From assembly GCA_050084515.1 (NCBI GenBank), contig CM114271.1, positions 23,064,001 through 23,128,000 of the forward strand: 64,000 bases of DNA, written 5' to 3'. The notes beneath the pieces are model-generated. The model made no database searches, was not told the DNA's origin, and saw only the letters and a list, made by a program, of their open reading frames with translations. The stretch comes from Blasia pusilla. Lineage: Eukaryota. Position numbers and translations under genes: made by a program. This document shows positions 8,198-41,165 of this stretch, piece by piece; positions within the stretch are counted from its first letter, which is position 1; every line of letters starts with the position of its first letter.

Positions 8198-8332
8198 TTA
8201 CAAGCCAACTCACTCAGATCTCCTCCTCGTTTCTTGCGTCCCTCCTCGAGCGTCCGAGTCGAGCCGCTACCTTGAAATTTCCCAAGCGTCCGGCTGATCC
8301 TACGACCCCAAGTTCTCGCTCACCAAGGATAA

Positions 8333-8344
8333 GCTCTAATACCA
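8333..8344 (-). promoter_or_regulatory. Primer binding site (tRNA-iMet type)
   Basis: Minus strand TGGTATTAGAGC, 2 nt after the 5' LTR; one mismatch to the canonical TGGTATCAGAGC. Confidence 0.85.
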
Positions 8345-8346
8345 CT

Positions 8347-19972: not shown

Positions 19973-19992
19973 TACCGCACCTTACTCCACAC

Positions 19993-21798
19993 TCACATAG
20001 CGTAGCGGCCAGCTGGAACACCTTGGCGAGTGTACCTCCCAATATCATAACATCGGAAGCAAAAAATAGAGGAGCACGGTACACCATTGTGGCCGCTCCC
20101 AACATCGTACTCGACACATGCTCCTCCTAAGCATCAGCAATAGGAGTCATCCCATTCGTTTCTCCCATCATCCTTTGTGCCTCCACACCAATAACATCAC
20201 CAACTCTTCGGGAACTCTAATCAGGACCTATCGATGAGGTCCTCATCGCCTCGTACATCGTGAAAGACTGAGAAAGCCTAGTCTATTTCTTGGCTTCCTC
20301 CGGTTGTTGATCCAACTCTGCGGCTGCTCCACATGTCACAATTGCGGGGGCCTCCATCTGGGCAACCCCGCACATCCAACCAGGATCCTCCATATCTCTG
20401 GCGGCTCCATAAGACATCGATGCCACGGATCCGGCATCGGGTAACCTCAATGCCATAGTGGCAATCTGATGTTGTAGGTGCTGTATCTGAGCAACCATCT
20501 CTGCTTCATGTCTGGGGTCTCCCTCGATGCGTCTAGGTGGTGGGACTCTACCTCCTCCATGGGCAACTCCACCACCCCCTCGGGCAAATCCAACTCCTCG
20601 TTCTCCAACGGACCACCTGGTGCACAACCTCTAGGCCCTCGGTCTGGACCTAACTCAAGGTGCAAGCTGAAAAACCTGGCGCGTGTATGACCGTACCTCT
20701 AACAATAGTTACACTGATAACCTCCTCGTGTAGCACCATCTCCTCCTCAATGTTGAGGCACGCGACCACGATCCTAACGAGTGCAATCATGCTGATGATG
20801 GGCTTCACCACATGACCAACAAGTAATCGTAGGCGGATGCTGCTGAGCCGCATATAAAGGTGCAGGTCTTTGTGGCAAGACCTCCTGGTATCCTCCCTCA
20901 GCTTGTGGTGCCACAATCAAACTATCTTGAAGTCCATGTTGCTGCACTAGTGGTGTAGGCAATTATCACCGCTCTCACCCAGAACCCATAGTGGCTACGC
21001 TCTCCTCCGCCATGTTGCGCTCAATATTCTAGGCAGTCCTAAAAACATCTCTCAAAGTAGGGAGGTGTTCATAAGAAGCACCCTCCCGCACCCTTCTCCA
21101 CAAGGTTCGCTCCAGCATCGCATACCATGATTGGATAGCCTAAGCCTCTCTTACCTCCTGAGTGACGTTGATCAATCAGCGCAAGTGAGTGTAAGCCTCA
21201 TGCAAACTCTCACCCGGGCGCCTGTGGAAGTCGTGGATGCTCCGCAACTTCTCCGTCCGTACCCCCTGGTAGCTCGCCCTCAACTCAGCGAAGAACTCAA
21301 CCACGAGGTTGAACTTGGGACAAACCTGACTAGATAGTGCAACTGCTACACTATAAGTGACCCCTCCTAAAAAAATCACTAGTGGAAGAAGAAGTAGCCT
21401 CTCGTCACTCCTCCTCCTCATCTGAATTATTTTACACCTTATTTTACAAAGAGAGAATGAGCTCTCAAACTCTCTCTACTTGAGGTATACTCTCTTCCCT
21501 CTCCCAAGCTCTCTCCTCGGTAACCTATGCTCGTAGGTTATCTCCTTGGCTCTTGATCTGCTGTAGCACGTCAAGGGCCTATTCCCAAAGTCGAAATTCA
21601 ACTCTACCAAATATAGAAACTTACCCAAAATAGTAAGTTTCTCTATATGGCTCCAAATGAGCCGAAACGGAGGGGAAACCTGCTCTCTCAGGTCTCCCGG
21701 GACCTGAGGAGGTCATCCTCAACCTCCTAAGCATGTCCTTCTCTATTCATGAAGGCGCTCTACCAGATCTCTCAGATCTATCCTAAAAAGTCGTGACA
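19993..21798 (-). mobile_element. Right half of the interrupted Gypsy copy: gag with Zn knuckles and an LTR fragment
   Basis: CWSCGEAHHQHDC knuckle; homologous to 24500-25970 (+). LTR end (minus strand TGTCACGACTTTTTAGGATAG) near 21798. Confidence 0.85.
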
Positions 21799-24700
21799 CC
21801 TTTCTGAATCTGTGGGAATCCATGTAAATTCAAAAAATCGGTCCGTTGTGTCCTTTTCGTTTGTAAGATGTACTAAAAGGAATCGGTTGGAAAGCCACTA
21901 TCAACGAGCAGTTCCAACTAGAAGGCGGTTTTTTGAGGTCGCTTGTGATCCAAGGAAGCTGCCCATGGGACCCAGCCCTTAGGGGTTCTATCCCATCTTT
22001 TAGGATAGATCAGTGAGATCTAGTAGAGCGCCTTCGTGAGTAGTGCACGACATGCTCAATAGGGCAAGGATGACCTGTTGAGGCCCCGAGAAACCTGAGA
22101 GAGAAAGTTTCCCTTTTGTTTTGGCTCATTTGGAATCATATTGAGAAACTTACTATTTTAGGTAAGTACCATTTTGAATATATGATTGACGTTTTACTTT
22201 TGGTAAGTGGCCCTTGACCTCCTACATCAGGTCAAGAGCCAGGGAGGTGACTTGGGAGCATAGGTTACCATGGAGAGAGCTTGGGAGACGGAAAGGTATA
22301 CTTTTAGGAGGGAGAGCTTGAGAGCTCATTATCTCTTTGTTGAACCTCTTCGTATGAAGCGGCAGAGCTATGGTCTTGTTTGCCTTGTGTGTAACCCAAG
22401 CCTCTCATTAGGAGAGTGGGTTTGGTTTGACATTGAGAGAGATATGTGAGAGTGCACACATGTGAGAACTATGGTGTTGTGAGAGAGATTGGATCTTATT
22501 TTACAAAGAGAGAATGAGTGAGTGAGAGAGCTTCATTGGGGAGCTCACTTGTCGCTCGCTGGTTTTGCAGGTTGGGGATCGCCATTGGGGAGCTCACTCG
22601 TCGCTCGCTGGTTTTGCAGGTTGGGGATCGTATTCCCCGTTCAATGGTTCATGGGAGTGCTCACCGGAGCAAGAGCCGCTTACTTGTGATGTTTCCTTTG
22701 CCGATTTTTCATGTGGAAGAGTGGCGCACGGAAGCGCTGCCCAATTTTTGATAGGGATTGAGTATAGGAGCGGGTTGCCCCATGCCGGTGCTTTCAGGAG
22801 CACCATGTAGCTTGCAAGATTGACTTTGTCATATATTGTGAAGTTGTGCACGTTGTGCAACAAATAATGCGCAATTTGGAGTTACAAGCAAAAATTTATG
22901 GTCAATCTTGCAAAACTGCCATTGCTAGGTGATTTTTAGGGTTAAATTGTTCAAACCCAAACCAAGTGCCACGCCAGCAACGGCCATCGCCATCATAGTC
23001 ACCATCAACGGTCAACCATCACTATTGACAGTCAACCATCACCATCAGCAGTTTGTCGTCACCATCAACGATCCACCGTTGGCCGCTGTCGTCGCCTAGC
23101 ACGGCAGAGAGCCGCGTTCAGCCGTTGTCCACCCTTTGGTTGCCATTGCTGCCATTACGGAGTGGAGGGTCTTCCACAACCACCGTTGATTCTCTGACTT
23201 GCACCGCCATCACGTACTTTGGTTTGGCCGTCACCATCATCACAAATTTTTCATCAACCAGTGCTCGAAGGTTACGGGTTATGGTGTTTGAGTTTTCATT
23301 TCATGTTGCTATGTTGGAATTGGCAGCCGTTGGATGATGATCGAGTACCGTGTCCTGACGCCCGTAACCGCAACACGCCGCTGATTGCCGCGCCGTGTTG
23401 CTTGTGGCCGCACCGGACCATCTCGATTGCGGAGCCGCTCCTTCACTAAGGTGCACAACATGAGAATTGCTGATTGAGGAGGGTATGTCGGCGAGTGCCG
23501 TGCCATTCTGTGCGCTAGTGCCGCATCGGAGCATTGGACATGCACCGCACATCGAGGAGGTTGGGGCAATGTCAGTACAAGAGGAGTACGACTCGCTGAT
23601 TGGAGGATTTGTCTTCACGACCGAGTTGGCATCGAGATTTGCAGTTGCCCAGGAGCGACATCGACATTATTGTCAGGTTACCCATTCTGGTCTCTTACCC
23701 TACACGTGTAAGGGATTTTCGGATATTGGGAAGCTATTTGGGATATTGGGTTTCGTGCTGATGCTAGGAGCATCGATGATGTATGGATTTAGGGGACGTA
23801 GATCTGTGTGAGATGTCTAGACTGTTGAGGATGGTTTGTCGATGAGACGATAGATTGGTTGATTTGCCGCACCATGCTGCTTGTTACCGCACACGACACG
23901 TCTCAGTGCGAGAGTGTAGATTGAGTGCCGCATGTTTAGTTTGAGTGATTGAGGGATTTCTCACGAGATTGAGAGTGATTGTGTGAGAGGGGCACGAGGA
24001 CCATCACGGCGTCCTTTCGAGATTTTGAGAGGCGAGGTAGTGGACGTGAGAGTAGCTTTGGAGGGTTTACTTGGAGTCGTGCAAGGTTTCAAGGGTCTCC
24101 ACATGAGAGACCACCTTGATCTCCTTCTCTGTCGTCTTCAGACGAGGAGGAGCATATAGAAGAGTGTATTAGTGATCGACCGTACACATTGAGTGGTCCT
24201 ACCAGTTGGGCGTATGAGATGGACGACCAGGGTAGAGGACCGCATAGGTTTTCAAGTATTGTAGGCAGTATAGAGCTACACGACTTCATTGCGGATTTTA
24301 GGAGTTGGTTTGACTCATAGTGGCTAGGAACTCTAGAGAGTTCAACCCGTTTATAGCATGGAATGGTATATTCCAGCATTAAGAGGGGGCGCCCATGGAC
24401 GATTACCATGAGTTCTCCCACAGATATGCCCAAGAGATTGAGGCATGGCGATTCTACTATGATCCACACTATGTGTCATAGACGGAACCGTGCCCAGATG
24501 AGGAGGAGGATTCAAGAGAGGCTACTTCCTCTTCCACTAGTGATGTTTTAGGAGGGGTCACTCGCACTGGAGCAATTGCACCATCTAGTCGGGTTTGCCT
24601 GAGGTTCAACCCGTGGTTGAGTTCTTTGCTGAGTTGAGGGCGAGCTACCAAGGGAGTACGGACGGAGAAGTTGCAGAGCATCCTTGACTTCCAGAGGCGC

Positions 24701-25972
24701 CCAGGTGAGAGTTTGTGTGAGGCTTACACTCGCTTGCGCTAGTTAATCAACATCACTCAAGGGATGACAGAGGATCAGGCTATCCAGTCATGGTACGCGA
24801 TGTTAGACTGGACCCTGCGAACACATGTGCGGGAGGGAGTGCTTCTAATGAATACCTCCCCTATATTGAGAGATGTTTTTAGGACCCACGAGAACATTGA
24901 GCGCAACATAGCGGAAGAGAGCGTAGCCACCATGGATTATGGGTGAGAGCAGTGATAATTGCCTGCATCACTAGTGGAGTAACGTGGAATCCAAGATAGG
25001 TCGATTGTGGCACCATGAGCTCAGGGAGGATATTGGGAGACCGTGCCACAAAGACCTGCACCTTCATATGCGGCTCAGCAGCAGCCACCTACGATTACTT
25101 GTTGGTCATGTGGTGGAGCCCATCATCAACGTGATTGCACTCGTCAAGGTCATGGACATGTGCCTCAGCATGGAGGAGGAGATGGTGCTACACCAAGAGG
25201 TTATCAATGTGATCATTGTCAGAGGTTTGGTCATACATGCACCAGGTATTTCAGTTTACATCCTGAGTTACGTCCAGACGGAGGGCCAGAGAGGGCACCA
25301 AAGCGAGTAGCCGGTTCGAGCGAGCCTAGAGATTGTGCACCAGGTGGTCCCGTTGGAGGATGAGAAGCTGGAGTTGCCCGACAGGGTGGTGGAGCTGCCC
25401 GTGGAGGAGGTAGAGTCCCACCAGCTAGATGCATAGAGAGAGATGTCGAGCATGAGGCTAGGATGGCTGCTCAGATACATCTGCTTCAGGAGCAGATTGC
25501 CGCTATGGCATTGAGATTACTCGATGTCGGATCCATGGCATCGACATCATATGGAGCAACGAGAGATATGGAGGATACTGGTTGGATGTGCGGAGTTTCC
25601 CAGATGGAGGCCGCCGTAGTTGTGACGCGTGGAGTAGCCAAAGAGTTTGATCCATAGCGAGGGGAAGCCAAGAAACATACTAGGCTTCCTTAGCCTTTCA
25701 CGTTGTCCGAGGGGATGAGGATCCCATCGATGGGTCCTGATGATGTTGGTGTGCAGGCACGGAGGACGATGGAAGAAGCGAGTGCAATGACTCCTATTGC
25801 TGATGCTTAGGAGGGGCATGTGTCGAGCACGTTGTTGGGGGCGGCCACCATTGTGTATCGCGCTCCTTTATTTTCTGCTTCCGATGTTATGACATTGGGA
25901 GGTATGTCCGCCGAGGTTTTTCGGTTGGCCACTATGCTATGTGAGTGAGGAGTTGGCATTCTTGCATCACGT

Positions 25973-27238
25973 TGTCGTATAGTAAAATCAACCAGTGTGT
26001 AAACTCCTTCGTCATTAAGTGTTAGATAGAGTTTCATTAGTATTAAGTAAATTGGCTTAGAAAAAGGAGATTCTTATGTTTAAACCTCTTTTATGCGGGC
26101 CCAACTTTAGGAAAAGGAGGTAATAAATAAAAGATGACTTTATAAAAGTAAAGTAGTTGCTTTAATGAAAAGCAAAAGTAGTCTTGGTTGGTGGCTAGGT
26201 TAGTTGGGGTAATTTGGAAAATATCATGTGGGTAAAAGAGGATATTTTGGAAGAGATAAGAGGAAATCTACTTGTGTCAAAATGTGATTGGCTAAGCCTT
26301 GAGAGGAAGCCATGTGGCACAAGATAAGATAAGCTCTATTTCGTACTCTTGTGGATCCCTTGTGAGTATATAAAGAGGAGGGACCTTCAAGGGTTCATCA
26401 CCTTCTATTCCACATCTTGAGTCTCTCGTGTCTCTCTTGAGTGTATGGCTTTGGGATTGCTTGCTCTTCCAATGAGAGTGGATCATCCCTCTTGGGAGAG
26501 TAACTTGATCATGGTCTATTCTTCGAGAGGTTTCTAGAGTGTGGTGTGTGTGTGTGTGTGTGGGGATGAGAGGTTTGTCACCGTAGAGGAGTTTAGTCAT
26601 ACTAAAATAGCGGATGTTTTGGCTTGTTACTTTCCCAATGAGAGTGGATTACCCCTCTTGGGAGAATAACTCCGCCAAAACCCATTCTTGAGGAGAGTAG
26701 AGAATGTCTGTCAAGCATGGATAGGGGTGGAGCACGAGCTGTGCCCGACTTTCCTTTCCTAAATCCTTACCATGTCAAGGTACTCTTTGTAGATAGGCAC
26801 TGGTTCACTCGCTATTTAGTTTATCACTTTGGGGAGGCGTTCATGAACCAGGTCATGCAATCTCCAACTCCGGTGATTCTTCCTATCGTCACATATGGAA
26901 GGACATGGGATTGTACTTTGTATGTCCTTATATAGCGATCCATGGATGTCAATAGGCCTGGTCAAGTAGGGTTTAACACCAGTTGTGCTATCTTCCTCGT
27001 GTACAAACGTAAAATAGTTTATAGGGATTTTATAGTTAGGAATTTCGGGGTCCGATGTTACGAAGAAGTGATCGCCTCGGCACTTCCATTTGTGATTTTC
27101 ATCGTGAGAGAATGGAGAGTGTACATCATAATTTTATATTGAAAAAGGAGAACTTATTAGAGAGTTCACCTTGCATCGACCGCATCTACCGCAGCTAGAA
27201 GGCCCGCCCTTGCTCGAAGAAAGATTCTCGACACGACA
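25973..27238. mobile_element. Solo-LTR-like insertion (1266 bp) with 4-bp TSD ACGT
   Basis: Ends TGTCGT...ACGACA; ACGT at 25969-25972 and 27239-27242; the empty site is visible in the copy at ~391-420 (-). Confidence 0.88.
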
Positions 27239-28185
27239 ACGTTCAGAGGTGATTGTAGAGGAGGTGATGGACCTGCCCTTGGAGCGGATGCTCGGGCCAT
27301 CCACCTTAGATTCATGGCATGGTACGGCTGCTAGGATGGCGGAGATGTGCGCTAGACCCGTGATAGAGTGTGCCATGGCTTCTCCTGGTGTTGTGTTGCT
27401 CGATAATTGAGGAGAGGTCTTCCAGTTGGAGAGGTCTTCCGGAGGTAGAGCTTTTAGTCCGTAGCGTGTCTTGTTGGATTCACGTGCGCAACGCTTGATC
27501 TTCGGGAAAGCGTCATTCATAGGATTGGGCTTGACGAGAGCCGATGTGGACCGTTGTCCATTTTGAATGTAGACATCCTTGGGTGGAGCGAGGACCACAC
27601 AGTTTATCATCCAACAGGAGGTTGTGGTGAGGATTTGCTCGAGATATCCTATAGATGAGTTTGTGGTGCGAGCCAAGGCGATAGTGACTGATGCAAAGTC
27701 CTACAACCTCTTGGTTGGTCGAGCAGTGTTATTCCCGATGGGTTTTTCCCTGGGTTATTGGGAGGAGTGAGCGTCCTATAGACTAGGATGGCAGTTAGGT
27801 GATGGCCGCCTTAGCTCATTACCCATTCGATTCATAGGTGTAGTGATCGAGCGACGTCCAGGAGAGATGGCAACCTTAGTAGCATTTAGCACTGCCATCA
27901 CTTGGCCTAGTGATTTGATTGAGGGACATGTCCATGTAGACGATACTTCCATTCTTGACATTTCTATGCAGAGGAGTGTCATCGTAGCCGCATCAGTCCG
28001 TGGAGGAGAGGTGCCGCTTTGGGGTTCGAGTGAGGAGCTTTGACGCTTAGCCACTGAGCATGTGCAAACCGCGTGGAGCGAGATGTTTGCACCAAAGTGT
28101 GACGGGTCACAGGAACCCCAGGTAGGCAGGAGTGCTACTATGATCCCTTTGGACACCACACGGATTGTGTGGTGCATCCCAGAGA

Positions 28186-29136
28186 AGGGTATTTGGGTGT
28201 TGGATCTCTTTGGAGGGATCAGCATTGGGTTAGCTGCTATTTTGGGCGTGCAACAATACCTGTATGTGGAGATTGATGATGTTGCGAGGCGCGCTTCACT
28301 TCACCAATTGGCGTTGTAACGTCTCCGTTTCCCCGACTTGTTGTTTTCATCCGCCATTCAGAGTTACCAAAGTTCCATACCAAGGGATATTTCATTCTTG
28401 GGGACGTAGGACTTGGATCAAGTAGGGACAATAGACTTGGTCATTGCTAGTTGACCATGTCAGGGCCAATCGAGTGGTGGACGAGGTAGCGGGTTAGCTA
28501 GCACTCGATCCAGATTATTTTGGGAGATGATGCAAATCTTGCAAAATTTATTGGAGCATTATTTATGTGCCAATTTTGGGCAATTTGAGGTCCCGCGTAG
28601 TGACGAGTGCACATCAAGTACGCGCATAGATCGGCCCGGAAGTGTTGTTAAATGCGGCAAGTGTGGGTTCACGAGCACATCGCCCAAATCTTTGGTGGAC
28701 CAACTTGGTACCACACGAGGTGTTACGGAGGGCATATGCAAGAGTGGAGTGCTCCTCTGATTTGTAGGTGGATTCTATATTGGATCCAGGCCATTGGTCA
28801 TAGGCAGCAAGGCTAGATGATTGACCGTCGTTGACTGTGGTCAATAGGATTGGCAAGCCACGCGTAGCCTTTCCCACATTGGTGAGTTTTCTCGCTTCCT
28901 ATGCATTCAAGGAGGCCAGACCTAACTTGGTTTGCGATGATCAAGTAAAGAGGTTGGTGGAGCCCAACGCCAATGAGCGAGAGCGAGTGATGGGATTCCC
29001 CATAGAAGTGACGGCAGAACCGTCACTATCAGAGGCATCACGATGTCATGTCTTGGGTCAGGCAATGGACCTGAACTGCTTGACATGGATTTTCAGCTTA
29101 GGAGTAGCTGAGCAGTGTCGTTTGAGGACACAATAG
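28186..29136 (+). pseudogene. Retrotransposon-encoded C5 cytosine DNA methyltransferase domain (DNMT3-like motifs)
   Basis: Motif I VLDLFGGISIG; II YLYVEIDD; IV IDLVIAS*PCQG...RSRLFWE; VIII LNAASVGSRAHRPNLWWTNL; IX/X ERERVMGFP...RCHVLGQAMDL. Confidence 0.85.
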
Positions 29137-32018
29137 ATCACAATTGTTGCGTTGGTGAGTCCCATGCCTACCGAGGCAGTTGAGGCAGCGGCTGGGGGCA
29201 AGACCCGAGGAGATCGACACACCAGGGGTGATTGAGAGAGACACCCTTGGACTTCTTGGGATGTTTTGCCGGTACGCCATGAGAGGATAGCCACAACATT
29301 GAGTGTGGTTCTGGGTAATGCACGTGGAGATGAGAGTTCTATTGTTCGAGACAGGATTGCACCATAGCAACCTTCGACACCCGCGTCGGAGAGTCCTACC
29401 GTAGTCACGATGGAGACTTGGGAGCGAGATATGGGCCCTAAGTTGATAGGAGGAAAGCAGTGCCGGATACACCAATTCCTTAAGAGTTATAGGACCTGTT
29501 TTGCATTAAGTATGCATGATTTGGGTACCCTGAAGGGTTTACGGATCCGCATTGAGTTGTCGAGCGACACACCGATCTTCCAATGACCCTAAAGGTATAG
29601 TGACATGGAGAGGGCTTTGATTCAAATTAGGAGCCAAGACTTGGTTGGAGCAGGACTAGTGGAGATGTCGCATGGAGAGTATGCATCTACCACTGTCATG
29701 CCCGCCAAGAAGGATGGCGCCAAGAAGGATCCGCCTATCCGTCCATGGCAATTGGACGGATAGGCGGATGTGTGGAGATTACCGACCTATCAATCGGCAG
29801 ACGAAGTTTGATAGGTATGCCATGCCCACCCTTGAGGAGATCTTTGATGCAATTGGGCATGCAAAGGTTGGATTTACGAGCCAGATACCATCAGTTGCCT
29901 ATCAGATTGGAGGACACGTAGAAGATGGCATTTTGGGGCATCGATCCTCACGAGAAGGATTGTTTGTATCAGTGGTGGTTCTTACCATTCGGGTTAAAGA
30001 ACGCCCTGGCTGAGTTTCAGAGGGTCATGGATAGGATCTTGGCAGGTTTGGATTTTGCTAGGTATTATATTGATGACATCGTAGTCTTTAGCGCCACAGT
30101 TTGAGGAGGATGAGCGACATCTAGAGGAGGTGTTTCGACGATTGCAATTACATGGATTGAAGCTACATCTAGGCAAGTGGAAGTTCTTCTATGACTAGAT
30201 TGAGGACTTGGGTCATACGATATATCCTGGGGGCCTTGGTGTGCAACAGACAAAGGTAGAGGCTATTTCACGCATTCCACGCCCTTCAAATGTGAGTCAA
30301 GTTCATGCGTTCATGGGATTGGCGAACTTCTATCAATAGTACGTCAAGGGTTTCAGTTGATTGCAAAGCCGCTAACCTTGATGACCAAGATGGATAAAGA
30401 ATGGCACTTGGGGGATGAGCAAGAGAGAGCATTTCAAATGCTCAAGGATAAATTGACATCCGCGCCCATATTGAGGAGACCGATCAGGGGACATCTTTTC
30501 CAGTTGCATACCGATTGGAGCATGTTGGGGCTTAAAGCCATGCTCACCCAACATGACGATGATGGTAGAGAGTTGATGATGGCTTATGCTAGTTGCTCGA
30601 ACAACACTGTAGAGATGAAGTATAACTCGTATGAGGATGAGTGCTTGGCTATAGTGTGGGCTGTCACACATTTCAGATGTTATCTATTCGACAATCCCTT
30701 TACCATCATTACTTATCATCAGCCACTTAAGTGGTTGATGGAGTCCGACAAGCTTACAAGAAAGCTTGCGAGGTGGGCTCTTTTGTTGCAGGAGTATGGC
30801 TTCCCAGTGGTTATAGACCTAGGACGCTCAACCAGGATGCAAATGGTTTGAGCTGTAATCCATGCCAGAGTCAACGAGATGCGATTGGAGCTCGTTGGCA
30901 TGGTGAGAGTGATGAGGAGTTGGTGCCAAGATGGCATGTGTCAGCCTTTTTGGGCTTGTAGGCTATGGAGAGCCAAATTTCTTGGACTTTGATGGCGAGG
31001 TGTGATGGAAAGTCCTAAGATCTAGAGGCCGGTGAGGAGACGACATGTGGCCGAGACATTCACGACCATGGAGTGGTCTTGGAGTACCTATGTACTGGCA
31101 GCGTCGCGAGCATAGTGGGTGCTAGAGAGCGGGATCGGATCCTACAGCAAGCCAAACGGTTCTGGTGGGAGGGCACACATGTGTTGCGAGTGTGGAAGTG
31201 CATATAGTGCCTCATCCTTCGCACAGAGTATGTTTGGTGCGTCATGCCCACGAGGAGGTGGGTCATTTTGGAGTGAAGCGGAGATACAGCTTGCTCCAGA
31301 TTCAGTATTGGTGGCGACGCATGCAGACTAACGTTCAGCAGTTTGATACCAGATGCATGGAGTGTGATCGAGTCTAGGCATCGTTCAATGCTCCAACTCC
31401 ACAGTTGCATCCACTTCCGATCATGGGTTTAGGTTATAGATGGAGTTTAGATTTTGCACGACCTTTGTCTTTGACAGAGCACCATAGTCGTTATGTGTTG
31501 GTGATGGTCGAGCACTTCTCGAGTGGATAGATTTGGTTGCATTGCCTGTCAAAGCAAGTGAGGAAGTAGCGTATACCTTCATAGATCGAGTGTTGAGTCA
31601 TTACGGTGCACCAGCTGAGGTCTTGACAGACCAGGGTACAGAGATCCGCGGGGAGTTTCAGGCCTTGTATGATCAGGCACTGATCGACCACCGCACTACT
31701 TCGTGAGGTCATCTTGAGGCGGATGGACTAGCGCAGCGGGTTGTGTAGATGGTGAAGAGAGGACTGTGCAAGTATGGCTTGTAGAGAGGTCACCTAGGAG
31801 ATTGGGACATTCAGTTTCTTTGGTTGGCGATGGAATACAGATTCAGCGAGCAGGCATCCTTAGCGTCTTTCTCACCGTACTTGTTGCCTTATGGCCGAGA
31901 GCCAGATTTACCTGCGGCCATTCGTCAAGATACTGGTAAGGTGTTGAACCTTGATAACCCTGATGTATGGATACGAGCCTCTTCGTAGAGGGCTGAGTTG
32001 TTTCAGAGAGTGATGCCC

Positions 32019-33299
32019 TATAATGTACAAGTGATTTTAAAATGGATCTTTTTACAATAATTTAATGAGTTCGATCCCTAAGAGGATCACGATTATGTGA
32101 AAAGAGAGTTCAAGATGACATTTATCTTGCAATAGTTGTAGTTAAGTGTGTAGAATTCACATTCAATGACTTATCAGTGTCTTCAAATCTCTCTTAGTAA
32201 TTAGATTTCTTTCCTCTATTCTCTCTAGTGGAGTTGAAATCACGCTCAGGTAGATCTTCACTCAACATCTAAGAACCTCATAGAGACCTCAACAAGAAGC
32301 TGGCTTCTCCTACTTTTGGAACTCAATCCGTCTAGGCAAACTACTCTCTATCGAACAGATTTCTTACAACTCCGTGTTGATTATTCTATTGATGAAAAGG
32401 TTCTCTGATTCACTCCTCACTCTACAGACCCAATAAGAATACTCAGACATATGCATCACACATCAGAATGAAGAAATTAGTGTTTTACTACTCCATCAAG
32501 AATGAGAAAGCTTCAAAGTGTATACAAGCTTGAGAGGGTACTACTCCTTTGCTCGGACCATTCCTACAGCATAAGGACTTCGTAAAAGAATGATGATGAT
32601 AGCTACTTTCATGCTTCTTAAATATCTTCCGGAGTAAGAGTGGTTCTAAGGATTCGAAGCGTTCTTGAGGAATCTGGTGTCTCTTCAACATTTGTAACTA
32701 CCTAGATCTATGGTGCTCTTTTCTTTTCCTATGATCCCTGTGAATCCGCTGAGCGTAACTGTACTAACTTCGTATCTGATAAAAAAAGTCACGCCTCTTC
32801 CTAGTCTAACTTTTCTAACGGTGTGTCGCTTGAAATCACTTTGAGTCTTAGCTTCGCTTTGCTGCAAAGTCTCGACCTCTTTTGCTTCCCTTGAGGACGA
32901 ATCTCTTTCTCCTGATCTGAAGACGAAGCGCTCCATTCTTCACTCTTGTTCTAGGTGCTTTGTGCTTTGTTGAAGAGCGAAGTACTTTGTCATCTTCTTC
33001 ATCTTCATCATGCTTCGTTCAAGAGCAAAGCACTTCATAAGCAGGTTCTTTATAAGGCTTCGTTGTCTTTTCCAAGCTTCGCTCTTAGTCTTTAGACTTT
33101 GTTACTGCGTTTCCATCTCCTCTAAGGCAAATCCTTGATTTTCCACCTCTCTGCCTTGTCCTAGGAGCTTCGTGATCTCTTTCAATATTACTCATTCTTC
33201 TACTACACAACCATAATATCCAAAATCATTATGTATACACAAATTTTCTTCGAATAAAAAGCTCTAAATCTTCAAAAGTACAAAATTGCGGGCATCACA
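32019..33299. mobile_element. Solo-LTR-like insertion (1281 bp) in the integrase, 5-bp TSD TGCCC
   Basis: TGCCC at 32014-32018 and 33300-33304; ends TATAATG...CATCACA; integrase frame (RVMP|MEFENL) resumes afterwards. Confidence 0.85.
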
Positions 33300-33619
33300 T
33301 GCCCATGGAGTTTGAGAACTTGGTGATTTCGCAACCTCGGGATACGTTGAGGTATGCAACTATTCAGGCAGGTGGTTATCGACCTACTATCCGGAGAATT
33401 CATCAAGAAGACTATGTCTACTTGCAACAGACGGCACCCACGACGTTGGATGTGATTGCAAGGCACACCATCTTGAGAGTGCGTGAGGTTTTTCCATCAA
33501 GTGTTCTCTTTTGGAGGGACGCGATGGTATGGTTTGGAAGGACCATGTGCGTAACTGTGCCCCATGTCATCTTCCGAACATTGACGGTATAGTTGATCCG
33601 AGCTTAGCAATAATTCCTG

Positions 33620-33771
33620 CAAGCTTGTGGTGTATGTTGTGTGATTCCGCCCGTGGTAGAGCCACTCTGCTAGTCTGTGATGGGTGTTCGAGAGGATGGT
33701 ATATGGCATGTTTGACGCCACCTCTAACTAAGGTTCCTCGGGGACGATGGATGTGTCCCAGATGTACATAG
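33620..33771 (+). other. PHD finger at the integrase C-terminus
   Basis: CMLC...LLVCDGCSRGWYMACLTPPLTKVPRGRWMCPRC; C4HC3 pattern with H replaced by Y in this copy. Confidence 0.88.
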
Positions 33772-34082
33772 AGTAGGTAGTTCTACATTCTGACTTGTGT
33801 CTGTGACATGGATGACAAGAAGGGGACTAATGATGGGACTACATGAGCACCTGGCCTTCTTGCTCTTAGCGTCCGAGAGATGTATGTCATGGTAGGTAGG
33901 AATAGATGGCTATCTGGACTTAGAAGGACCTAACCACCAGCTAGGGGGGCGATTGGAGATCTTTGGGTACTTCTTATCTCGTTATTTGGATGCCATGAGT
34001 AAGCATGGGATCATTCGTGTTTGTGTCTGTGTTTGGTGACAACAATGTATGTTGTGTAGCGATGTGTATATACACGACAACT

Positions 34083-34726
34083 CTCACGTCTTTTAGGATA
34101 GATCAATGAGATCTAGTAGAGCGCCTTTGTGAGTAGCGCAGGACATGCTCAATAGGTCGAGGATGACCTGCTGAGGCCCCGAGAAACCTGAGAGAGCAAG
34201 TTTCCCCTTCGTTTTGGCTCATTTGGAGCCATATTGAGGAGCTTACTTTTTTAGGTAAGTACCATTTTGAGTATATGATCGACGTTCTACTTTTGGTAAG
34301 TGACCCTTGATCTCCTACATCAGGTCAAGAGCCAAGGAAATGACTTGGGAGCATAGGTTACCATGGAGAGAGCTTGGGAGAGGGGAGGGGTATATCTCAA
34401 GGAGAGAGAGCTTGAGAGCTCATTATCTCTTTGTTGAACCTCTTGGCATGAGGCGGCGGAGCTATGGTCTTGCTTGCCTTGTGTGTGTAACCCAAGCCTC
34501 TCATTAGGAGAGTGGGTTGGGTTTGACATTGAGAGACATATGTGACAGTGCACACATATGAGAACTCTGATGTTGTGAGAGAGATTGGATCTTATTTTAT
34601 TGGAGATATTTTGGTACCTCTTGTCTCATTGTTTGGATGCCATGAGTTAGCATGGGATCGTGCGTGTTTGTGTGTCTATTCGGTGACAGCGATGTATGTT
34701 GTGTAGCGATGTGTATACGCACGACA
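34083..34726 (+). repeat. LTR of the DNMT/PHD Gypsy family
   Basis: TCACGTCTTTTAGGATAGATC...ACGACA; similar to 21997 onward and to 39696-40331. Confidence 0.8.
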
Positions 34727-37700
34727 GTTCTCCCCGTGGGAACCGTGACAATGGGTCTCAGAAGTCCTATGTCCCTTGGTCCTGTATTTATTTTGTCAAG
34801 TTTGATGATATCTACAAGCCATTTTACCCGCGATTAGGCAAGATTTCCCGGTTTCACGTATATTAGAAACAAGTTATAGCGTGATGCGACCCAAGGATCT
34901 TCCTTGGAGTTTCTGTGTCGTAACTCTTGCGGCTTGGAATGACCAAAGACCAATTTTCAGTTTGTTAAATTTTAGTCGTTGATCTTGGTGATGGGGATCC
35001 CCGCGACCCAAAACTTGCCCAGTGGGGACCTTCCCCTAATGGCTCCGGATTCAGGAGTTCCCACTAAGGACTAGGTCCCAAGTGCTATGTAGTCCTGACG
35101 ACTATGTAGATGGTCCTAAATTTTCCTTATCTAATCATACCACGCATTCTAATTTTCCATCACACCACGCGGATCGAACATCGAAATGGTTTGCACTGCA
35201 CAAAGATAGGGTGCAAGTCATTGGGATACTCATTACCTAGGATTCCCTATAACAAAGTTGCGGATGGAAAATTGGAGAAAGAAGGGAATTGGAAGACGGT
35301 GAAAGGAGGAAGAGTTCACTTCTAATTCTTGCATATCATGTGATTTGAATTATTGGTGCAGTGCGATGTGAATTCTTATTACAAGATGCAAAATTCTTAG
35401 AAACTCACCTTGCTCAACTAGATTTTAGCCTCTATGCACGTGGAATTGGAGTCAGTGTGGTGATTGCGCTTCATTTGAAGCTTTCAACTGGTGCTCAGAT
35501 TTCTATTGTTACTTTGGGCCCTGATAAAGGGAGCTGGATATTGTGGCATGTCGGCAGGTTTGATTAGTTTCCGTCCAATTTTCTTGCCTTCTTGAAGTCT
35601 TTTCAAAAAACATTTAGGTCAATTCCTGTTAGCGGCTCTAAGATTAGTCCCATGTGCAGAATACTCAAAATTGGAGGCTGATAGTAGAGGAAATCAATAG
35701 AACTTTGCAAGTGAATGAAGATATCCACCTCCATTACTTTTGTGATCTCACTACCAATTCTCAACGATATCTCGCTCACTTGAGTTCGATGAGGGTAGTT
35801 ATAGAATCTGGTAAGCAGCTAGCATTGTTAGTAACCTTCAGTGAATGGTAGAAGGAATTGTGAGATCACCATGGCAGCCATGAATGTATAGGGATGAGTA
35901 TCGGGCATGAGTAGCAACCAGCCCACCAAGATTGCATTCGACCTGAATGAATGTGGTTAAGATCTGCAATCGTACATAGCGAGAGAGTGGGAATAGAGAG
36001 AGGCAAATGAGGGTGGCATGCTTGCTGCTTGCATTGTTGCGACTACTGATTTACAATAGCATCTAACAAACACGTACATATAGAGATCGAGTGAGAGGGT
36101 GATCGTTGCTTTCCTGATTCAAAGGGGGTCCGGTCAAAGAGATCATGGTGTTGCATGCTTGTCTTTTCATTTTGGCTATAACTTCCGTTCCTTGATAGAA
36201 TCTTTGTGGTAGCTCCACAAGTATGTATGAGATTGAGATAGGGTGGGAGAGGGTTCAACTCCAAAGTCTTACACTTTACAGTGGATAGGGCTGGCCTCAA
36301 TCGCATTAGAGTGGGACATTAGCTTGTACATTCATTACAAATGCTCGCCTTTCAAACTCTACATTTAAATTCCCAATGACAGTCGAACAGAGACATGTAG
36401 CGGGATGGTTTGATCAATTGTGCTAGCTAAAGGGTTTGTGGTGACAGTTTGGTTTGGCAAGGATTGCAAACTTGGGTACATATATTATAAGTAGTCTCCT
36501 TCGACGGGGAATGTGCTTATGCAGATACAAACTTGTGTGTGCATAAATACACTTCTATGAGTAAACTCTACAAATAGAAGTGTGACCTCTGAGCTAGTGA
36601 CTACCTGATAAATGTAAGAGTATCTAGCCAATACAGTAGAAAGTTACACACAATAATGCATGAAATTTCATTATTTTTGGAGACACATAGCAGCAGGGAG
36701 ATTAGCGCAATGTGCTATCACAGGAACACTCATCACCATCATCCTTTGGCTTACTGCCATATGTAGCATCTGAAGATGATATATCCGAGCTTGCATACGA
36801 TGCCGTGCGGAATACATCAGCCCAAAAATTGTCACTTGATATCTCTAGGGAAGCAAGAATAACATCTTGGTGCAGATCAATTGGAAGATTTGGGTTTCTT
36901 CCGTTCAGATTTGGCACTAAAGTTGGAATATCTAAATATGCCTCAATCCAACAGTTTGGTATCCTTTGCATCTAGCATGGTTGATTCGCAAAGGTAAAAC
37001 TCTCCAATAGATGCTTTTTAAGGTTGTAGTTATGTTAATTATGGTTAGAATCTCAAAGTGTATATTATTTTGACACATTAAATATAAAAGAATGTAACAT
37101 TAACATTGTTATTGAATAGGAAATATAAGTCATATTCGAGAGATATTACTTTCGAACAGTGGATTGCCTTGCCATTGCACAGGATACAATTGACAACTCA
37201 AAAGATCTCGATGCTCATCTACTATTGTGAGCTATACCTCCTAATATTAGCGCATTCTCATTCAAGAGTATGAAAGCCTACGAAAACCACTATAGGGTAG
37301 AAGGGCCAAGTGGTGCGACACCCTTCTCCACTTATAATGTTGGATAGTATTCCTCATCGTCTTCAAAGGAAAGTGTTTCTTCAGCCAATCAAAAACAAAT
37401 TTCCTTTCCTTATGCCGTACAATCCTTGTCAACACAGGTAAAGTGATAAAGATGTTCATCTTCCATCGTCTTTGTGGAGTCAAGAATGCTTGGAGATATG
37501 GGAGTGTGGACTGTAAGTATTGTGGGTTGAGGCACGACTACTTTGCTGGATTCTCCTAGATAGAACAACCTCTCTCGCGGTACGTTGCTATAATGACAGT
37601 GAAAGCTTAATTATTAGCCTCATGGTGGCTACCTTTGAACTTAGGAGAATCCTGAGTCCTCAACATGCTCTTTCCCTTCAAATTTGTAGACTTTCTAGCT

Positions 37701-39139: not shown

Positions 39140-39455
39140 TGTCACGTCTATTTGGATAGATCAACGAGATGTAGTAGAGCGCCTTAAGAGATATTGGAGG
39201 ACAGCCTCAAAAGATTGAGGATAATATGCTGAGGCCACGCGTAACCTGAGAGAGCAGATTTCCCCTTCGTTTAGGCTCATTTGGAGCCGTATTGAGAAAG
39301 TTACTACTTCGGGTAAGTGACCATTTTTTGTATAGTTGAGTTTCTACTTTGGGAAGTGGCCCTGGATCCGCTACACCTAGTCAAGAGCCAAGGAGATGGC
39401 CGACGAGCATAGGTTACCGTGGAGAGGGTTTGGGAGAGGAAAGGGGATATACCTC
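39140..39455 (+). repeat. Truncated LTR of the same family, followed by (GAGTA)n
   Basis: Starts TGTCACGTCTATTTGGATAGATC; similarity ends near 39455. Confidence 0.7.
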
Positions 39456-39695
39456 CATAAAAATAGAGTAGAGTAGAGTAGAGTAGAGTAGATTTTTAGT
39501 CCACGGGAAGCCAATCTCGCTTATGGGACCCCTTCCACATATATGATTGACATCGCAATAGACAGGTTCCTTCACATCTAGATTTGGTATTATCACTAAA
39601 GAGATTTGGTTTTTTTTTTGTTTTTTTAATTTTTTTATAAAGGCTACAATTTTTATCCAGATTTTTGACCTGGGAGCATAGTCAAGGCACACGCA

Positions 39696-40331
39696 TGTCA
39701 CATCTTTTAGGATAGATCGGCGAGATCTAGAAGAGCGCCTGCAGAGATACTGTAGGGCAGCCTGGGGAGGTCAAGGATGATCTATTGAGGCCATGGGTAA
39801 CTTGAGAGAGCAATTTTCCCTTCGGTTCGGCTCATTTGGAGCCAAATAGAGAAACTTACTATTTCAAATAAGTTTCCATTTGGAATATAGTTGACTTTCC
39901 ACTTTGGGAAGTTTCCCTTGACTCGCTACAACAGGTCAAGAGCCAAGGAGGTGACCTGCGAGCATAGGTTATCAAGGAGAGAGGTTGGGAGAGGGAAGGG
40001 AGTAAACCTCCAAGAGAGAGAGCTTGAGAGCTCATTCTCTCTTTGTTCAACCTCTTCGCATGAGGCGGCGGAGATATGATCTTGCTTGTCTTGTGTGTGT
40101 AACCCAAGCCTTTCATGAGGAGAGTGGGTTTGGTTTGACATAAGAGAGAGTGCACACCATGGAGAGTTTGGAGTGAGAGATGTGATGTGAGATCTACTTG
40201 ATTTATTGGAGATATTTTGTACCGCTCGTCTCGTTGAGAATATTCCATGAGTTAGCATGGGATCGTGCGTATTTGTCTGTATGTTCCGTGATAAAGATGT
40301 ATGTTGTATAGCGATGTGTATGCGTACGACA
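39696..40331 (+). mobile_element. Solo LTR of the same family
   Basis: TGTCACATCTTTTAGG...ACGACA; flanks CGCA/CACA could be a 4-bp TSD with one CpG transition. Confidence 0.8.
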
Positions 40332-40519
40332 CACATGAAAGGCACACAAGGTGCTCTCTCTCTCAAACATGGACCATCCATGCCCTAGGTAGGAGATGCC
40401 ACTACCTTTGGGTTGAGACCGACCCCCCCCCCCCCATCCTCTAAGGGCCTAGGAGATTTGAATCCAAGATCTCTTCAAGAAGACCTTATGTTTGTTTAGC
40501 TAACTTCTTGGTCATTTAC

Positions 40520-41165
<646 letters not shown>

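What the first reader, a model, noticed from the sequence alone, without database searches (positions are those of the whole stretch)
28186..29136. Ty3/Gypsy polyprotein with a DNMT3-like C5 cytosine methyltransferase between protease and RT
Motifs I, II, IV (PCQG), VIII (AHRxxxWWTNL) and IX/X (ERxMGFP...LGQAM) lie in order within pol; motif VI was not found. Established: retrotransposon-borne DNMTs are known from Symbiodinium and the charophyte Klebsormidium. An example beside a land-plant-type receptor kinase would extend this, and suggests self-methylation of cDNA.
Basis: partly seen in the sequence, partly recalled or inferred. Interest (0 to 1): 0.8.

Follow-up and report, generated by a model that had tools for sequence, protein, structure and literature searches.

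The report
Dead retrotransposon copy carrying DNA methyltransferase
This is a decayed copy of a very abundant plant jumping gene that carries its own DNA-methylating enzyme domain, a rare kind so far described in print only from algae, and its closest relatives here are in mosses and liverworts.

Summary
Window 21988-34732 (+) is a roughly 12.7 kb Ty3/Gypsy retrotransposon. Its pol carries a C5 cytosine methyltransferase domain (28146-29127) between protease and RT. Pfam DNA_methylase scores 26.6 bits against a cut-off of 22. A profile that includes this domain matches DNMT3A/B/C best among solved structures (7e-24).

This copy is dead. It has 7 in-frame stops and a 26-nt deletion that shifts the frame and removes the E-N of motif VI. 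Its terminal repeats are 9% diverged.

It is not a one-off capture. In a DNA run labelled as the same species, the DNMT bins reach 51-90% of the protease bin's depth, and 1.37% of the reads examined lie on the element. Stranded RNA reads cover the DNMT in sense.

The domain order gag-PR-DNMT-RT-RH-INT(-PHD) is the same in a Klebsormidium nitens protein (the published KnitGypsy-Dnmt3 host), in Closterium proteins and in an intact 2188-aa environmental polyprotein. In the DNMT tree the window falls in a 98%-supported clade with all six named bryophyte proteins (Marchantia, Riccia, Calypogeia, Sphagnum).

Verdict: a new, land-plant member of the known streptophyte Gypsy-DNMT3 kind. Enzyme activity is untested.

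The parts
21988..22503 (+). 5' terminal direct repeat A1 (516 bp)
   Evidence: 90.75% identical over 519 columns to 34081-34599. K2P distance 0.094, with 32 transitions and 13 transversions.
24400..25650 (+). gag-like region with a CCHC zinc knuckle (CWSCGGAHHQRDC, about 25100-25138)
   Evidence: The knuckle is read directly from the ORF 25019-25363. The region 24495-25953 recurs inverted at 19984-21424 (80%). There was no Pfam gag hit at E<=0.01, so the gag label is an inference.
25969..27238 (.). About 1.27 kb insertion of another repeat, absent from many family copies
   Evidence: The joint 25968->27239 is seen in 407 WGS reads and in 17 and 11 RNA reads. The same repeat lies inverted at 42457-43678 (87%).
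27351..27750 (+). Aspartic protease (LLDSRAQ for the DSG motif), with stops
   Evidence: tblastn of P0001 residues 986-1110. A second fragment of the same protease lies at 59-291 on the minus strand.
28146..28559 (+). DNMT3-like domain, N-terminal half: motifs I, II and IV, then RSRLFWEM. Three in-frame stops (28317, 28407, 28452) and a 4-residue gap after motif I relative to a Calypogeia protein
28560..28566 (+). Break point: 7 nt where relatives have 11 codons. A 26-nt deletion removes the E-N of motif VI and shifts the frame
   Evidence: P0173 residues 47-57 have no counterpart between the two tblastn segments. See also alignment A4.
28567..29127 (+). DNMT3-like domain, C-terminal half: the V of motif VI, then motifs VIII, IX and X. 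Four in-frame stops (28627, 28765, 28801, 28822)
29464..30200 (+). Reverse transcriptase, split over three frames
   Evidence: Pfam RVT_1 scores 29.3 bits, just under the 29.6 cut-off. tblastn of P0031 residues 1332-1620.
30411..30798 (+). RNase H
   Evidence: Pfam RT_RNaseH E 8e-32 and RT_RNaseH_2 E 6.5e-29.
31207..32018 (+). Integrase: H2C2 zinc domain and DDE core, in two frames
   Evidence: Pfam Integrase_H2C2 E 2.1e-11. tblastn of P0031 residues 1892-2160.
32013..33298 (.). About 1.29 kb AT-rich insertion, absent from many family copies
   Evidence: The joint 32012->33299 is seen in 661 WGS reads. WGS depth drops to 382-756 inside it.
33299..33771 (+). Integrase C-terminal region ending in a PHD finger (33631-33766)
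   Evidence: Pfam PHD E 1.4e-9. tblastn of P0006 residues 1371-1534. PHD was found in 20 of 24 long relatives.
33952..34085 (+). Repeat B1, directly upstream of A2
   Evidence: 86% identical to 34599-34732.
34081..34599 (+). 3' terminal direct repeat A2
34599..34732 (+). Repeat B2, directly downstream of A2. Together the repeats read A1...B1-A2-B2
   Evidence: An A-then-B arrangement also occurs at 39698-40331.

Best explanation
Window 21988-34732 (+) is an old, non-functional copy of a high-copy Ty3/Gypsy retrotransposon family. The family's Gag-Pol reads gag - protease - DNMT3-type C5 cytosine methyltransferase - RT - RNase H - integrase - PHD finger. It belongs to the streptophyte 'Gypsy-DNMT3' lineage first described in Klebsormidium nitens, and here it sits in a land plant, most likely a bryophyte.

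Shown:
- The domain identity and the domain order.
- The decay of this copy.
- That the DNMT segment is carried by most family copies in the host.
- That the family, DNMT segment included, is transcribed in sense.
- That relatives keep the catalytic motifs.

Inferred: in intact members the methyltransferase is made as part of the polyprotein, next to RT. It would act as a de novo cytosine methyltransferase on the element's own new DNA or its insertion site. The C-terminal PHD finger would take the chromatin-reading role that the chromodomain has in chromoviruses.

This copy itself does nothing. Its excess of C-to-T and G-to-A changes and its CpG depletion show that it has been a target of methylation, not a source of it.
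For: Domain identity:
- Pfam DNA_methylase scores 26.6 bits against a cut-off of 22.
- tblastn gives E 9e-76 and 3e-82.
- The profile search puts DNMT3A/C/B first among solved structures.

Domain order: Pfam and tblastn place PR, DNMT, RT, RH, INT and PHD collinearly. The intact 2188-aa P0031 has CCHC 530, protease 796-888, DNMT 978-1226, RVT 1421-1575, RNase H 1638-1766 and integrase 1895-2061. It aligns collinearly with the window.

Lineage:
- P0048 is GAQ93235.1 of Klebsormidium nitens and reads PR-DNMT. P0050, P0067, P0113, P0075 and P0101 are Closterium proteins of the PR-DNMT / DNMT-RT kind.
- In a 132-row tree, a 98% branch puts the window with all 11 PR-DNMT rows and apart from 109 rows. 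Those 109 include every row typed RT-RH-DNMT-INT.
- In an 89-row IQ-TREE, the window lies in a 21-row clade (98%) with all 6 named bryophyte proteins.
- The Riccia sorocarpa protein P0183 runs from DNMT into RT collinearly with the window, at 52% then 75-85% identity.

Family copies keep the domain:
- WGS depth in the DNMT bins is 2016, 1150 and 1796, against 2246 for PR and 2643 for RT.
- 170,541 of 12,434,590 reads (1.37%) lie on the element.

Transcription: in the DNMT bins, depth with the first mate on the minus strand is 20-61 (X17) and 16-55 (X18). With the first mate on the plus strand it is 1.2-6.8 and 0.01-1.8.

Decay of this copy:
- 7 stops and a 26-nt deletion.
- Terminal-repeat K2P distance of 0.094.
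- Places where the window has A or T and the reads have G or C number 402 + 351, against 186 + 205 for the reverse.
- CpG o/e is 0.68 and TpG+CpA o/e 1.19 for the element, against 0.95 and 1.13 for the neighbouring kinase gene.

Relatives keep PCQ, and three of the four named bryophyte proteins that span motif VI keep ENV: P0204 (Calypogeia), P0176 (Sphagnum) and P0177 (Calypogeia, which reads KNV).

Repeat layout: A1...B1-A2-B2 fits the published remark that KnitGypsy-Dnmt3 has DIRS-like repeats with Gypsy domains (PMC5890265, Fig. 4c legend, passages seen).
Against: - No intact copy from this host was seen, because no genome is held. Whether the family is still active here is therefore open.
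- Reads were laid at >=80% likeness. Depth therefore mixes diverged copies and possibly related Gypsy families, and 131,193 of the 170,541 WGS reads are under 90% alike. The 1.37% figure is an upper bound. The middle DNMT bin falls to 51% of the PR bin, so some copies may lack or have diverged in that part.
- Only 216 of 6,849 (X17) and 472 of 7,149 (X18) RNA reads are >=99% alike. Expression of this particular copy is not shown.
- Enzyme activity is not shown for any member of this lineage. The K. nitens domain gave no methylation in yeast, and the authors call that inconclusive.
- Assigning the host to bryophytes rests on a transposon tree and on a Malectin-like receptor kinase gene. Transposons can move between species.
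- The tree has no host DNMT3 outgroup, so descent from DNMT3 rests on the search against solved structures and on the paper.
- A target-site duplication, TG..CA ends, PBS and PPT were not established.
Confidence: 0.9

Rival explanations
1. One-off capture: a single Gypsy copy picked up a fragment of a host DNMT3 gene or transcript, so the domain is not a family trait.
For: Only one DNMT segment lies in the window, although there are at least five other fragments of the family. The gag-integrase deletion derivative at 45306-46267 has none.
Against: WGS depth over the DNMT bins is 51-90% of the protease bin. Sense RNA covers it. The same PR-DNMT-RT order occurs in K. nitens, Closterium, Riccia and environmental polyproteins. 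The other fragments in the window simply do not span that part of pol.
Confidence: 0.02
2. Family-level pseudo-enzyme: the methyltransferase fold is kept in the polyprotein for a structural or DNA/chromatin-binding role and does not methylate DNA.
For: The only assay of a lineage member (K. nitens) showed no methylation in yeast. One bryophyte relative reads KNV for ENV (P0177).
Against: Relatives across the lineage keep FGG, PCQ, ENV and the AHR..WTNL and ERER.MGF motifs. The authors call the yeast negative inconclusive because human DNMT3B also failed. The paper reports Ka/Ks < 0.2 and conserved key residues for the K. nitens copies (passage seen).
Confidence: 0.15
3. Independent origin or horizontal arrival: the bryophyte-type elements did not descend vertically from the charophyte Gypsy-DNMT3. 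They acquired the domain separately or were transferred between hosts.
For: The same DNMT clade sits at two different places in pol. Of the 150 relatives, 88 have it after RNase H or directly before integrase, and 13 have it after protease. So the module has moved or been gained at least twice. The family is patchy among named taxa.
Against: The bryophyte clade is nested among PR-DNMT rows from Klebsormidium, Closterium and unnamed sources on one side of a 97-98% branch. It shares their domain order and the C-terminal PHD finger.
Confidence: 0.15
4. Assembly chimera or nested insertion of a separate DNMT-bearing element into an ordinary Gypsy.
For: This copy does hold two nested insertions (25969-27238 and 32013-33298).
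Against: Among the 15 best-supported joints listed, none brackets 28146-29127 (226 further joints were not shown). P0031 and P0183 cross both borders of the domain collinearly. The similarity to P0173 runs on to 29334, into the linker before RT.
Confidence: 0.02

Closest known systems
KnitGypsy-Dnmt3 of Klebsormidium nitens (de Mendoza et al. 2018, PMC5890265; passages and section 10 read)
   Same: Both are Gypsy elements with a non-rearranged Dnmt3-type domain inside pol. The K. nitens protein GAQ93235.1 (P0048) has the domain directly after protease, as here. It lies on the same side of the 97-98% branch in the DNMT trees. The repeat layout is unusual in both: the paper says 'same as that of a DIRS retrotransposon', and the window reads A1...B1-A2-B2.
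   Different: P0048 is not among the 45 relatives that score best against the window's domain; those are 31-48% identical. The window is 50-63% identical to the bryophyte-clade P0173 in alignment A4. The host here is a land plant, and the family is very abundant (up to 1.37% of the WGS reads examined), whereas the paper stresses that K. nitens has fewer copies than Symbiodinium. The published figure and supplements could not be seen, so a PHD finger in the K. nitens element is unconfirmed.
Closterium spp. (Zygnematophyceae) PR-DNMT proteins: GJP34393.1, CAI7911866.1, CAI7850249.1, CAI5973665.1, CAI7734670.1
   Same: Same PR-DNMT(-RT) order, and the same side of the DNMT tree.
   Different: They form a separate 98-99% supported clade. 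I found no paper that describes them.
Gypsy polyproteins with RT-RNase H-DNMT-integrase-PHD, for example 'pol' KAF8056149.1 of Scenedesmus sp. PABB004
   Same: Related DNMT domain (36-46% identical to P0001). Related RT, RH and integrase, and the same C-terminal PHD finger.
   Different: The methyltransferase lies between RNase H and integrase, not between protease and RT. These rows fall on the other side of the 97-98% branch.
SymbioDIRS-Dnmt3 and SymbioLINE-Dnmt of Symbiodinium (PMC5890265)
   Same: Retrotransposon-borne C5 methyltransferases. The SymbioDIRS-Dnmt3 domain methylated CG de novo in yeast.
   Different: A different transposon class (DIRS with tyrosine recombinase, and LINE) in dinoflagellate hosts. 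The authors treat this as an independent acquisition.
Chromoviruses (Ty3/Gypsy elements with a C-terminal chromodomain)
   Same: A chromatin-reader module sits at the C-terminal end of integrase. One chromovirus-like element lies in this window at 2043-9349.
   Different: The targeting role of the PHD finger is an inference.

Membership tests
C5 cytosine DNA methyltransferase (Pfam PF00145) | Profile match above the curated threshold | tested here: met
   26.6 bits against a cut-off of 22, E 5e-6, on the stop-read-through frame. Single ORF pieces alone reach only 18.2 bits.
C5 cytosine DNA methyltransferase (Pfam PF00145) | Motif I (FxGxG, SAM binding) and motif IV (PCQ, catalytic cysteine) | tested here: met
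   VLDLFGGIS and PCQG are present. A stop codon stands directly before PCQG.
C5 cytosine DNA methyltransferase (Pfam PF00145) | Motif VI (ENV) | tested here: not met
   The 26-nt deletion at 28560-28566 removes E-N and leaves only V. P0173 and three of the four named bryophyte proteins that span it (P0204, P0176; P0177 reads KNV) have ENV.
C5 cytosine DNA methyltransferase (Pfam PF00145) | Open reading frame / capacity to encode an enzyme | tested here: not met
   7 in-frame stops and one frameshift within 28146-29127.
DNMT3 subfamily | Closest to DNMT3 among characterised methyltransferases | tested here: met
   Profile A3 (10 relatives plus the two window pieces) gives DNMT3A 7e-24, DNMT3C 5.8e-22, DNMT3B 1e-21, DRM 2e-12, M.HhaI 4e-10 and DNMT2 1.6e-8. 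No DNMT1 appears at E<=0.01.
DNMT3 subfamily | Canonical (not DRM-rearranged) motif order I-II-IV-VI-VIII-IX-X | tested here: met
   The order is read from alignments A3 and A4.
DNMT3 subfamily | Placement inside the DNMT3 clade in a tree with host DNMT1/3/DRM/others | not tested
   No host DNMT sequences could be obtained. The paper places the K. nitens transposon domains as Dnmt3-related (passage seen).
DNMT3 subfamily | PWWP/ADD reader domains of animal DNMT3 | tested here: not met
   Pfam found none in the element or in P0031. These domains are not universal in DNMT3 (PMC12344493, passage seen).
Ty3/Gypsy LTR retrotransposon | pol order PR-RT-RNase H-integrase | tested here: met
   The methyltransferase is inserted after PR.
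Ty3/Gypsy LTR retrotransposon | Two long terminal direct repeats | tested here: met
   516/519 bp, 90.75% identical. A further 134-bp repeat flanks the 3' copy on both sides.
Ty3/Gypsy LTR retrotransposon | Target-site duplication, TG..CA ends, PBS and PPT | tested here: inconclusive
   The ends were read in alignment A2. No clear duplication or TG..CA was seen. PBS and PPT were not searched for.
Streptophyte Gypsy-DNMT3 lineage (KnitGypsy-Dnmt3) | Dnmt3-type domain within Gypsy pol, at the same position as in K. nitens | tested here: met
   P0048 (K. nitens) reads PR-DNMT. The window reads PR-DNMT-RT.
Streptophyte Gypsy-DNMT3 lineage (KnitGypsy-Dnmt3) | DNMT domain groups with the K. nitens element's domain | tested here: met
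   Same side of a 98% (FastTree, 132 rows) and a 97% (IQ-TREE quick, 89 rows) branch. The trees are unrooted with respect to host DNMT3.
Streptophyte Gypsy-DNMT3 lineage (KnitGypsy-Dnmt3) | DIRS-like repeat structure | tested here: inconclusive
   The A1...B1-A2-B2 layout is present. I recall it as the split-direct-repeat layout of some DIRS-like elements. Tandem-LTR rearrangement is not excluded, and the published figure was not visible.
Streptophyte Gypsy-DNMT3 lineage (KnitGypsy-Dnmt3) | Cytosine methyltransferase activity | not testable with these tools
   The published yeast assay of the K. nitens domain was negative and called inconclusive.

The most novel reading that the evidence does not exclude
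A land plant (probably a bryophyte) hosts a transcribed family of Gypsy elements, making up as much as about 1% of its DNA reads, that still includes members encoding an active DNMT3-type enzyme. If so, a share of de novo cytosine methylation in that plant would be transposon-encoded. Moreover, the same DNMT module sits at two different places in pol (after protease, or between RNase H and integrase) within one PHD-finger Gypsy group that spans chlorophytes, charophytes and bryophytes. That would mean the methyltransferase was relocated or re-acquired inside an old, widespread and essentially undescribed group of green-lineage retrotransposons.
Probability: 0.3. Interest if true: 0.7.

Novelty: new member of a known kind. 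Interest (0 to 1): 0.5.

Why it matters
Retrotransposons that carry their own cytosine methyltransferase turn the usual picture, in which the host methylates the transposon, on its head. In the papers I could search, they are described only from Symbiodinium and from one charophyte with fewer copies than Symbiodinium.

This locus and its relatives show three things:
- The streptophyte Gypsy-DNMT3 lineage reaches into land plants, since all six named bryophyte proteins group with the window.
- It can be very abundant, at up to 1.37% of the WGS reads examined.
- It is transcribed in sense, across the methyltransferase segment.

That gives a tractable plant setting for asking what a transposon gains from a DNMT3. 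It also warns annotators: short 'DNA (cytosine-5)-methyltransferase' gene models in bryophyte genomes may be transposon fragments.

The locus itself is a dead relic and has no function of its own.

Tried and rejected
- Whole genome: none is held for this window, so intact copies could not be sought and copies could not be counted directly.
- Earlier scan notes: nothing for this genome or by sequence. The word search gave one unrelated diatom note.
- Single ORF pieces against Pfam were too weak on their own: one piece reached 18.2 bits and two had no hit. Each half against solved structures was also only weak, with best E-values of 0.0043 and 0.24. A frame read-through and relatives were needed.
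- First protein search, with the N-terminal half and candidates of 953-3033 aa: 1 protein among 363 candidates.
- Host identification with the Malectin-like exon, longer proteins only: none of 565 candidates scored. The protein atlas said only Streptophyta. The species was not determined and I did not pursue it.
- Sequencing-run search: no RNA holder was listed in the index. RNA evidence comes only from the raw reads that were laid.
- I first read GNL (28576-28584) as a mutated motif VI.
- Literature: six full-text searches found no description of DNMT-bearing Gypsy elements in bryophytes or Closterium. Two recent papers mention 'streptophytes' only by citing the 2018 paper (passages seen). 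Supplements and figures were closed and may list more hosts.
- No structure prediction, complex prediction or RNA-family search was run. None would have changed the reading.
Full report
**What is at the locus**

A direct repeat of 516/519 bp (21988-22503 and 34081-34599, 90.75% identical) frames a 12.7 kb element on the + strand.

Reading the three + frames with stops shown as X, Pfam finds these domains:
- DNA_methylase, 26.6 bits against a cut-off of 22.
- RVT_1, 29.3 bits, just under its 29.6 cut-off.
- RT_RNaseH, E 8e-32.
- Integrase_H2C2, E 2e-11.
- A PHD finger, E 1.4e-9.

A protease with LLDSRAQ for the DSG motif lies at 27351-27750. A CCHC knuckle lies at about 25100.

The order along the strand is gag - PR - DNMT - RT - RNase H - integrase - PHD.

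**The methyltransferase segment**

It is read in two frames, 28146-28559 and 28567-29127.

The copy is broken:
- Seven in-frame stops, at 28317, 28407, 28452, 28627, 28765, 28801 and 28822.
- A 4-residue gap after motif I.
- A 26-nt deletion: relatives have 11 codons (...YILEN) where the window has 7 nt (28560-28566). The deletion shifts the frame and takes away the E-N of motif VI.

My own first guess, that GNL was a mutated ENV, was wrong.

**Which class of methyltransferase**

Each half on its own gives only weak matches to solved structures. I then built a profile from ten relatives plus the two window pieces. It matches DNMT3A at 7e-24, DNMT3C at 5.8e-22 and DNMT3B at about 1e-21. DRM follows at 2e-12, M.HhaI at 4e-10 and DNMT2 at 1.6e-8. 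No DNMT1 appears at E<=0.01.

The motif order is not the rearranged DRM order. 'DNMT3-like' is therefore supported. I could not build a tree with host DNMT3s.

**Is it a family trait or a one-off?**

No genome is held for this window, so I used public runs and laid four of them on 22600-33900 at >=80% likeness.

In a WGS run labelled as the same species:
- 170,541 of 12,434,590 reads examined (1.37%) lie on the stretch.
- Summing both directions, depth is 2246 over protease and 2016, 1150 and 1796 over the three DNMT bins. It is 2237 and 1973 over the linker, 2643 over RT and 3373 over integrase.

Most family copies therefore carry the segment. The dip in the middle bin may reflect divergence or partial loss.

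Two stranded RNA runs cover the DNMT bins at depths of 20-61 and 16-55 with the first mate on the minus strand. With the first mate on the plus strand, depth is at most 6.8. By the tool's note, this means sense transcripts.

Caveats:
- 131,193 of the 170,541 WGS reads are under 90% alike.
- Only 216 of 6,849 and 472 of 7,149 RNA reads are >=99% alike.
- These are therefore statements about the family, not about this copy, and the 1.37% is an upper bound.

The same call shows two joints, 25968->27239 (407 WGS reads) and 32012->33299 (661 reads). The two stretches of about 1.3 kb between them are insertions that many copies lack. Without them the element would be about 10.2 kb, and the integrase would run straight into the PHD finger.

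**Decay signature**

Places where the window has A or T and the reads have G or C number 402 + 351. The reverse direction gives 186 + 205.

| Region | CpG o/e | TpG+CpA o/e |
|---|---|---|
| The element | 0.68 | 1.19 |
| Neighbouring kinase gene | 0.95 | 1.13 |
| Young chromovirus-like element at 2043-9349 | 0.98 | 1.02 |

(All.)

This is the pattern expected from deamination of methylated cytosines (established knowledge). The copy has been a substrate of methylation.

**Relatives**

A full HMMER search with the intact domain of P0001 gave 2602 proteins at E<=1e-3 and 233 at E<=1e-30. P0001 is the one hit. The best 150 were listed, and 79 of them are >=1000 aa.

Typing these 150 by BLAST with domain segments gave:
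- 88 with the methyltransferase after RT/RNase H or directly before integrase.
- 13 with it after protease or before RT.
- 49 with the DNMT alone.

Pfam on 24 long relatives found RNase H in 23, the integrase core in 23, RVT_1 in 20, PHD in 20 and DNA_methylase in 15.

P0031 is 2188 aa and intact. It has exactly the window's order and aligns collinearly with it, whereas P0006, of the other type, aligns with DNMT and RT swapped.

Names printed by the look-ups:
- P0048 is GAQ93235.1 of Klebsormidium nitens and reads PR-DNMT.
- Five proteins are from Closterium strains.
- P0024 is 'pol' of Scenedesmus sp. PABB004, of the other type.

**Trees**

FastTree tree: the window plus 131 of the 150 proteins, after dropping 19 rows with under 290 aligned residues. 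A 98% branch separates 109 rows from 23 rows. The 109 include all rows typed RT-RH-DNMT-INT. The 23 hold all 11 PR-DNMT rows and the window.

The last protein search used the window's C-terminal half and returned 94 of 125 candidates at E<=1e-5. The best are 55-64% identical and include proteins named from Sphagnum troendelagicum, S. jensenii, Calypogeia fissa, Marchantia paleacea and Riccia sorocarpa.

IQ-TREE quick tree: 89 rows, made up as follows.
- The window.
- 21 rows from the window's side of the first tree.
- 12 of the 109 other-type rows, used as root.
- 55 of the 93 new hits; the 38 shorter than 195 aa were dropped.

It places the window in a 21-row clade (98%) with all six named bryophyte proteins. 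That clade is nested among P0001/P0002, the Closterium clade and the Klebsormidium clade.

The Riccia protein continues from DNMT into RT collinearly with the window, at 75-85% identity in the RT start. So at least that bryophyte protein is a piece of the same kind of element.

Relatives in this clade keep PCQ, and P0173 plus three of the four named bryophyte proteins spanning it keep ENV (one Calypogeia protein, P0177, reads KNV).

**Host**

The window holds an intron-rich receptor kinase gene with a Malectin_like domain (E 1.6e-26 and 3.2e-14) and a Pkinase domain (E 1.8e-12) at 49122-56642. Its nearest atlas clusters are streptophyte.

Together with the tree, this makes a land plant, probably a bryophyte, the most likely host. 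The species was not determined.

**Repeat layout**

The 134 bp just upstream of the 3' repeat (33952-34085) recur just downstream of it (34599-34732, 86%). The element therefore reads A1...B1-A2-B2, and an A-then-B arrangement recurs at 39698-40331.

I recall this as the split-direct-repeat layout of some DIRS-like elements. The 2018 paper's Fig. 4c legend says that the K. nitens elements have the repeat structure of a DIRS retrotransposon but Gypsy domains. Rearranged tandem LTRs are not excluded. No target-site duplication was evident.

**Comparison with what is known**

The kind is known: retrotransposons carrying Dnmt3-type domains were described by de Mendoza et al. 2018 (PMC5890265; abstract, passages and section 10 read).

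Two later texts speak of 'streptophytes (Gypsy-DNMT3)' only by reference to that paper:
- bioRxiv 10.64898/2026.05.21.726589 (passages seen).
- PMC12344493 (passages seen).

Six full-text searches found no account of such elements in bryophytes or Closterium. Supplements were closed and may list more hosts.

The published yeast assay gave methylation for SymbioDIRS-Dnmt3 but none for the K. nitens domain. The authors call that result inconclusive.

**Verdict**

- The locus is a dead copy of a very abundant, transcribed Gypsy-DNMT3 family. It is a new land-plant member of a known kind, not a new kind.
- How the enzyme serves the element (self-methylation of new DNA is the leading idea) remains an inference.
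- The wider pattern I saw in passing deserves its own study: one DNMT module at two positions in a PHD-finger Gypsy group, spread from chlorophytes to bryophytes.

Noticed in passing
relatives P0006, P0010, P0012, P0019, P0024 and others (not in the window): A large group of Gypsy polyproteins carries the related DNMT between RNase H and integrase, and ends in a PHD finger. By segment BLAST, 88 of the 150 best relatives are of this type. One is 'pol' of Scenedesmus sp. PABB004. I found no paper on this architecture in green algae.
   Followed up: partly
relatives P0135 and P0146 (not in the window): Two long proteins on the window's side of the DNMT tree carry both DNA_methylase (C5) and Dam (N6-adenine methyltransferase) Pfam domains. 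This recalls the 'EpiLTR' elements of a 2026 preprint, which however places their DNMT near DNMT4.
   Followed up: no
window 33631-33766: A PHD finger sits at the very C-terminus of the integrase, where chromoviruses carry a chromodomain. It is conserved in 20 of 24 long relatives. It may be a chromatin reader for targeting, but this is untested.
   Followed up: partly
window 2043-9349 (minus strand): A younger Gypsy element with long open frames. Its LTRs (2043-3045 and 8347-9349) are 97.4% identical, it has a chromodomain-like C-terminus (EYLVKWKGY), and its CpG o/e is 0.98, so it is not depleted, unlike the DNMT element.
   Followed up: partly
window 19984-21798 (minus), 2-403 (minus), 45306-46267 (+), 39140-41100: Further fragments of the same family. 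There is a head-to-head partial copy (terminal repeat plus gag) and a protease fragment at the window's edge. There is also a deletion derivative in which gag runs straight into the integrase core (Pfam rve E 8e-13). A cluster of terminal-repeat pieces makes up the rest.
   Followed up: partly
window 25969-27238 and 42457-43678 (minus): A repeat of about 1.27 kb inserted in the element. It has the highest RNA depth of the stretch (107 and 215, first mate on minus) and very high contig depth in a skim run. Its identity is unknown.
   Followed up: no
window 49122-56642 (+): An intron-rich receptor kinase gene: a Malectin_like domain in two exons, LRR-like exons, a transmembrane stretch and a kinase. 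It appears intact and is not CpG-depleted.
   Followed up: partly
window 47258-47641: A tandem repeat with a period of about 84 bp (self-matches 86-89%). In one frame it reads as repeated LVWIRGVDGAVLI units.
   Followed up: no
window 16039-18722 (+), 13255-13734 (minus), 59379-60320 (+): Long open frames (159-313 aa) without any Pfam match at E<=0.01. They may belong to unclassified transposons.
   Followed up: no
proteins P0176, P0173, P0189, P0199 (public annotations): Some short gene models in bryophyte genomes and metagenomes are named 'DNA (cytosine-5-)-methyltransferase' or 'site-specific DNA-cytosine methylase', yet they group with this transposon domain. They may be transposon fragments rather than host genes.
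   Followed up: no
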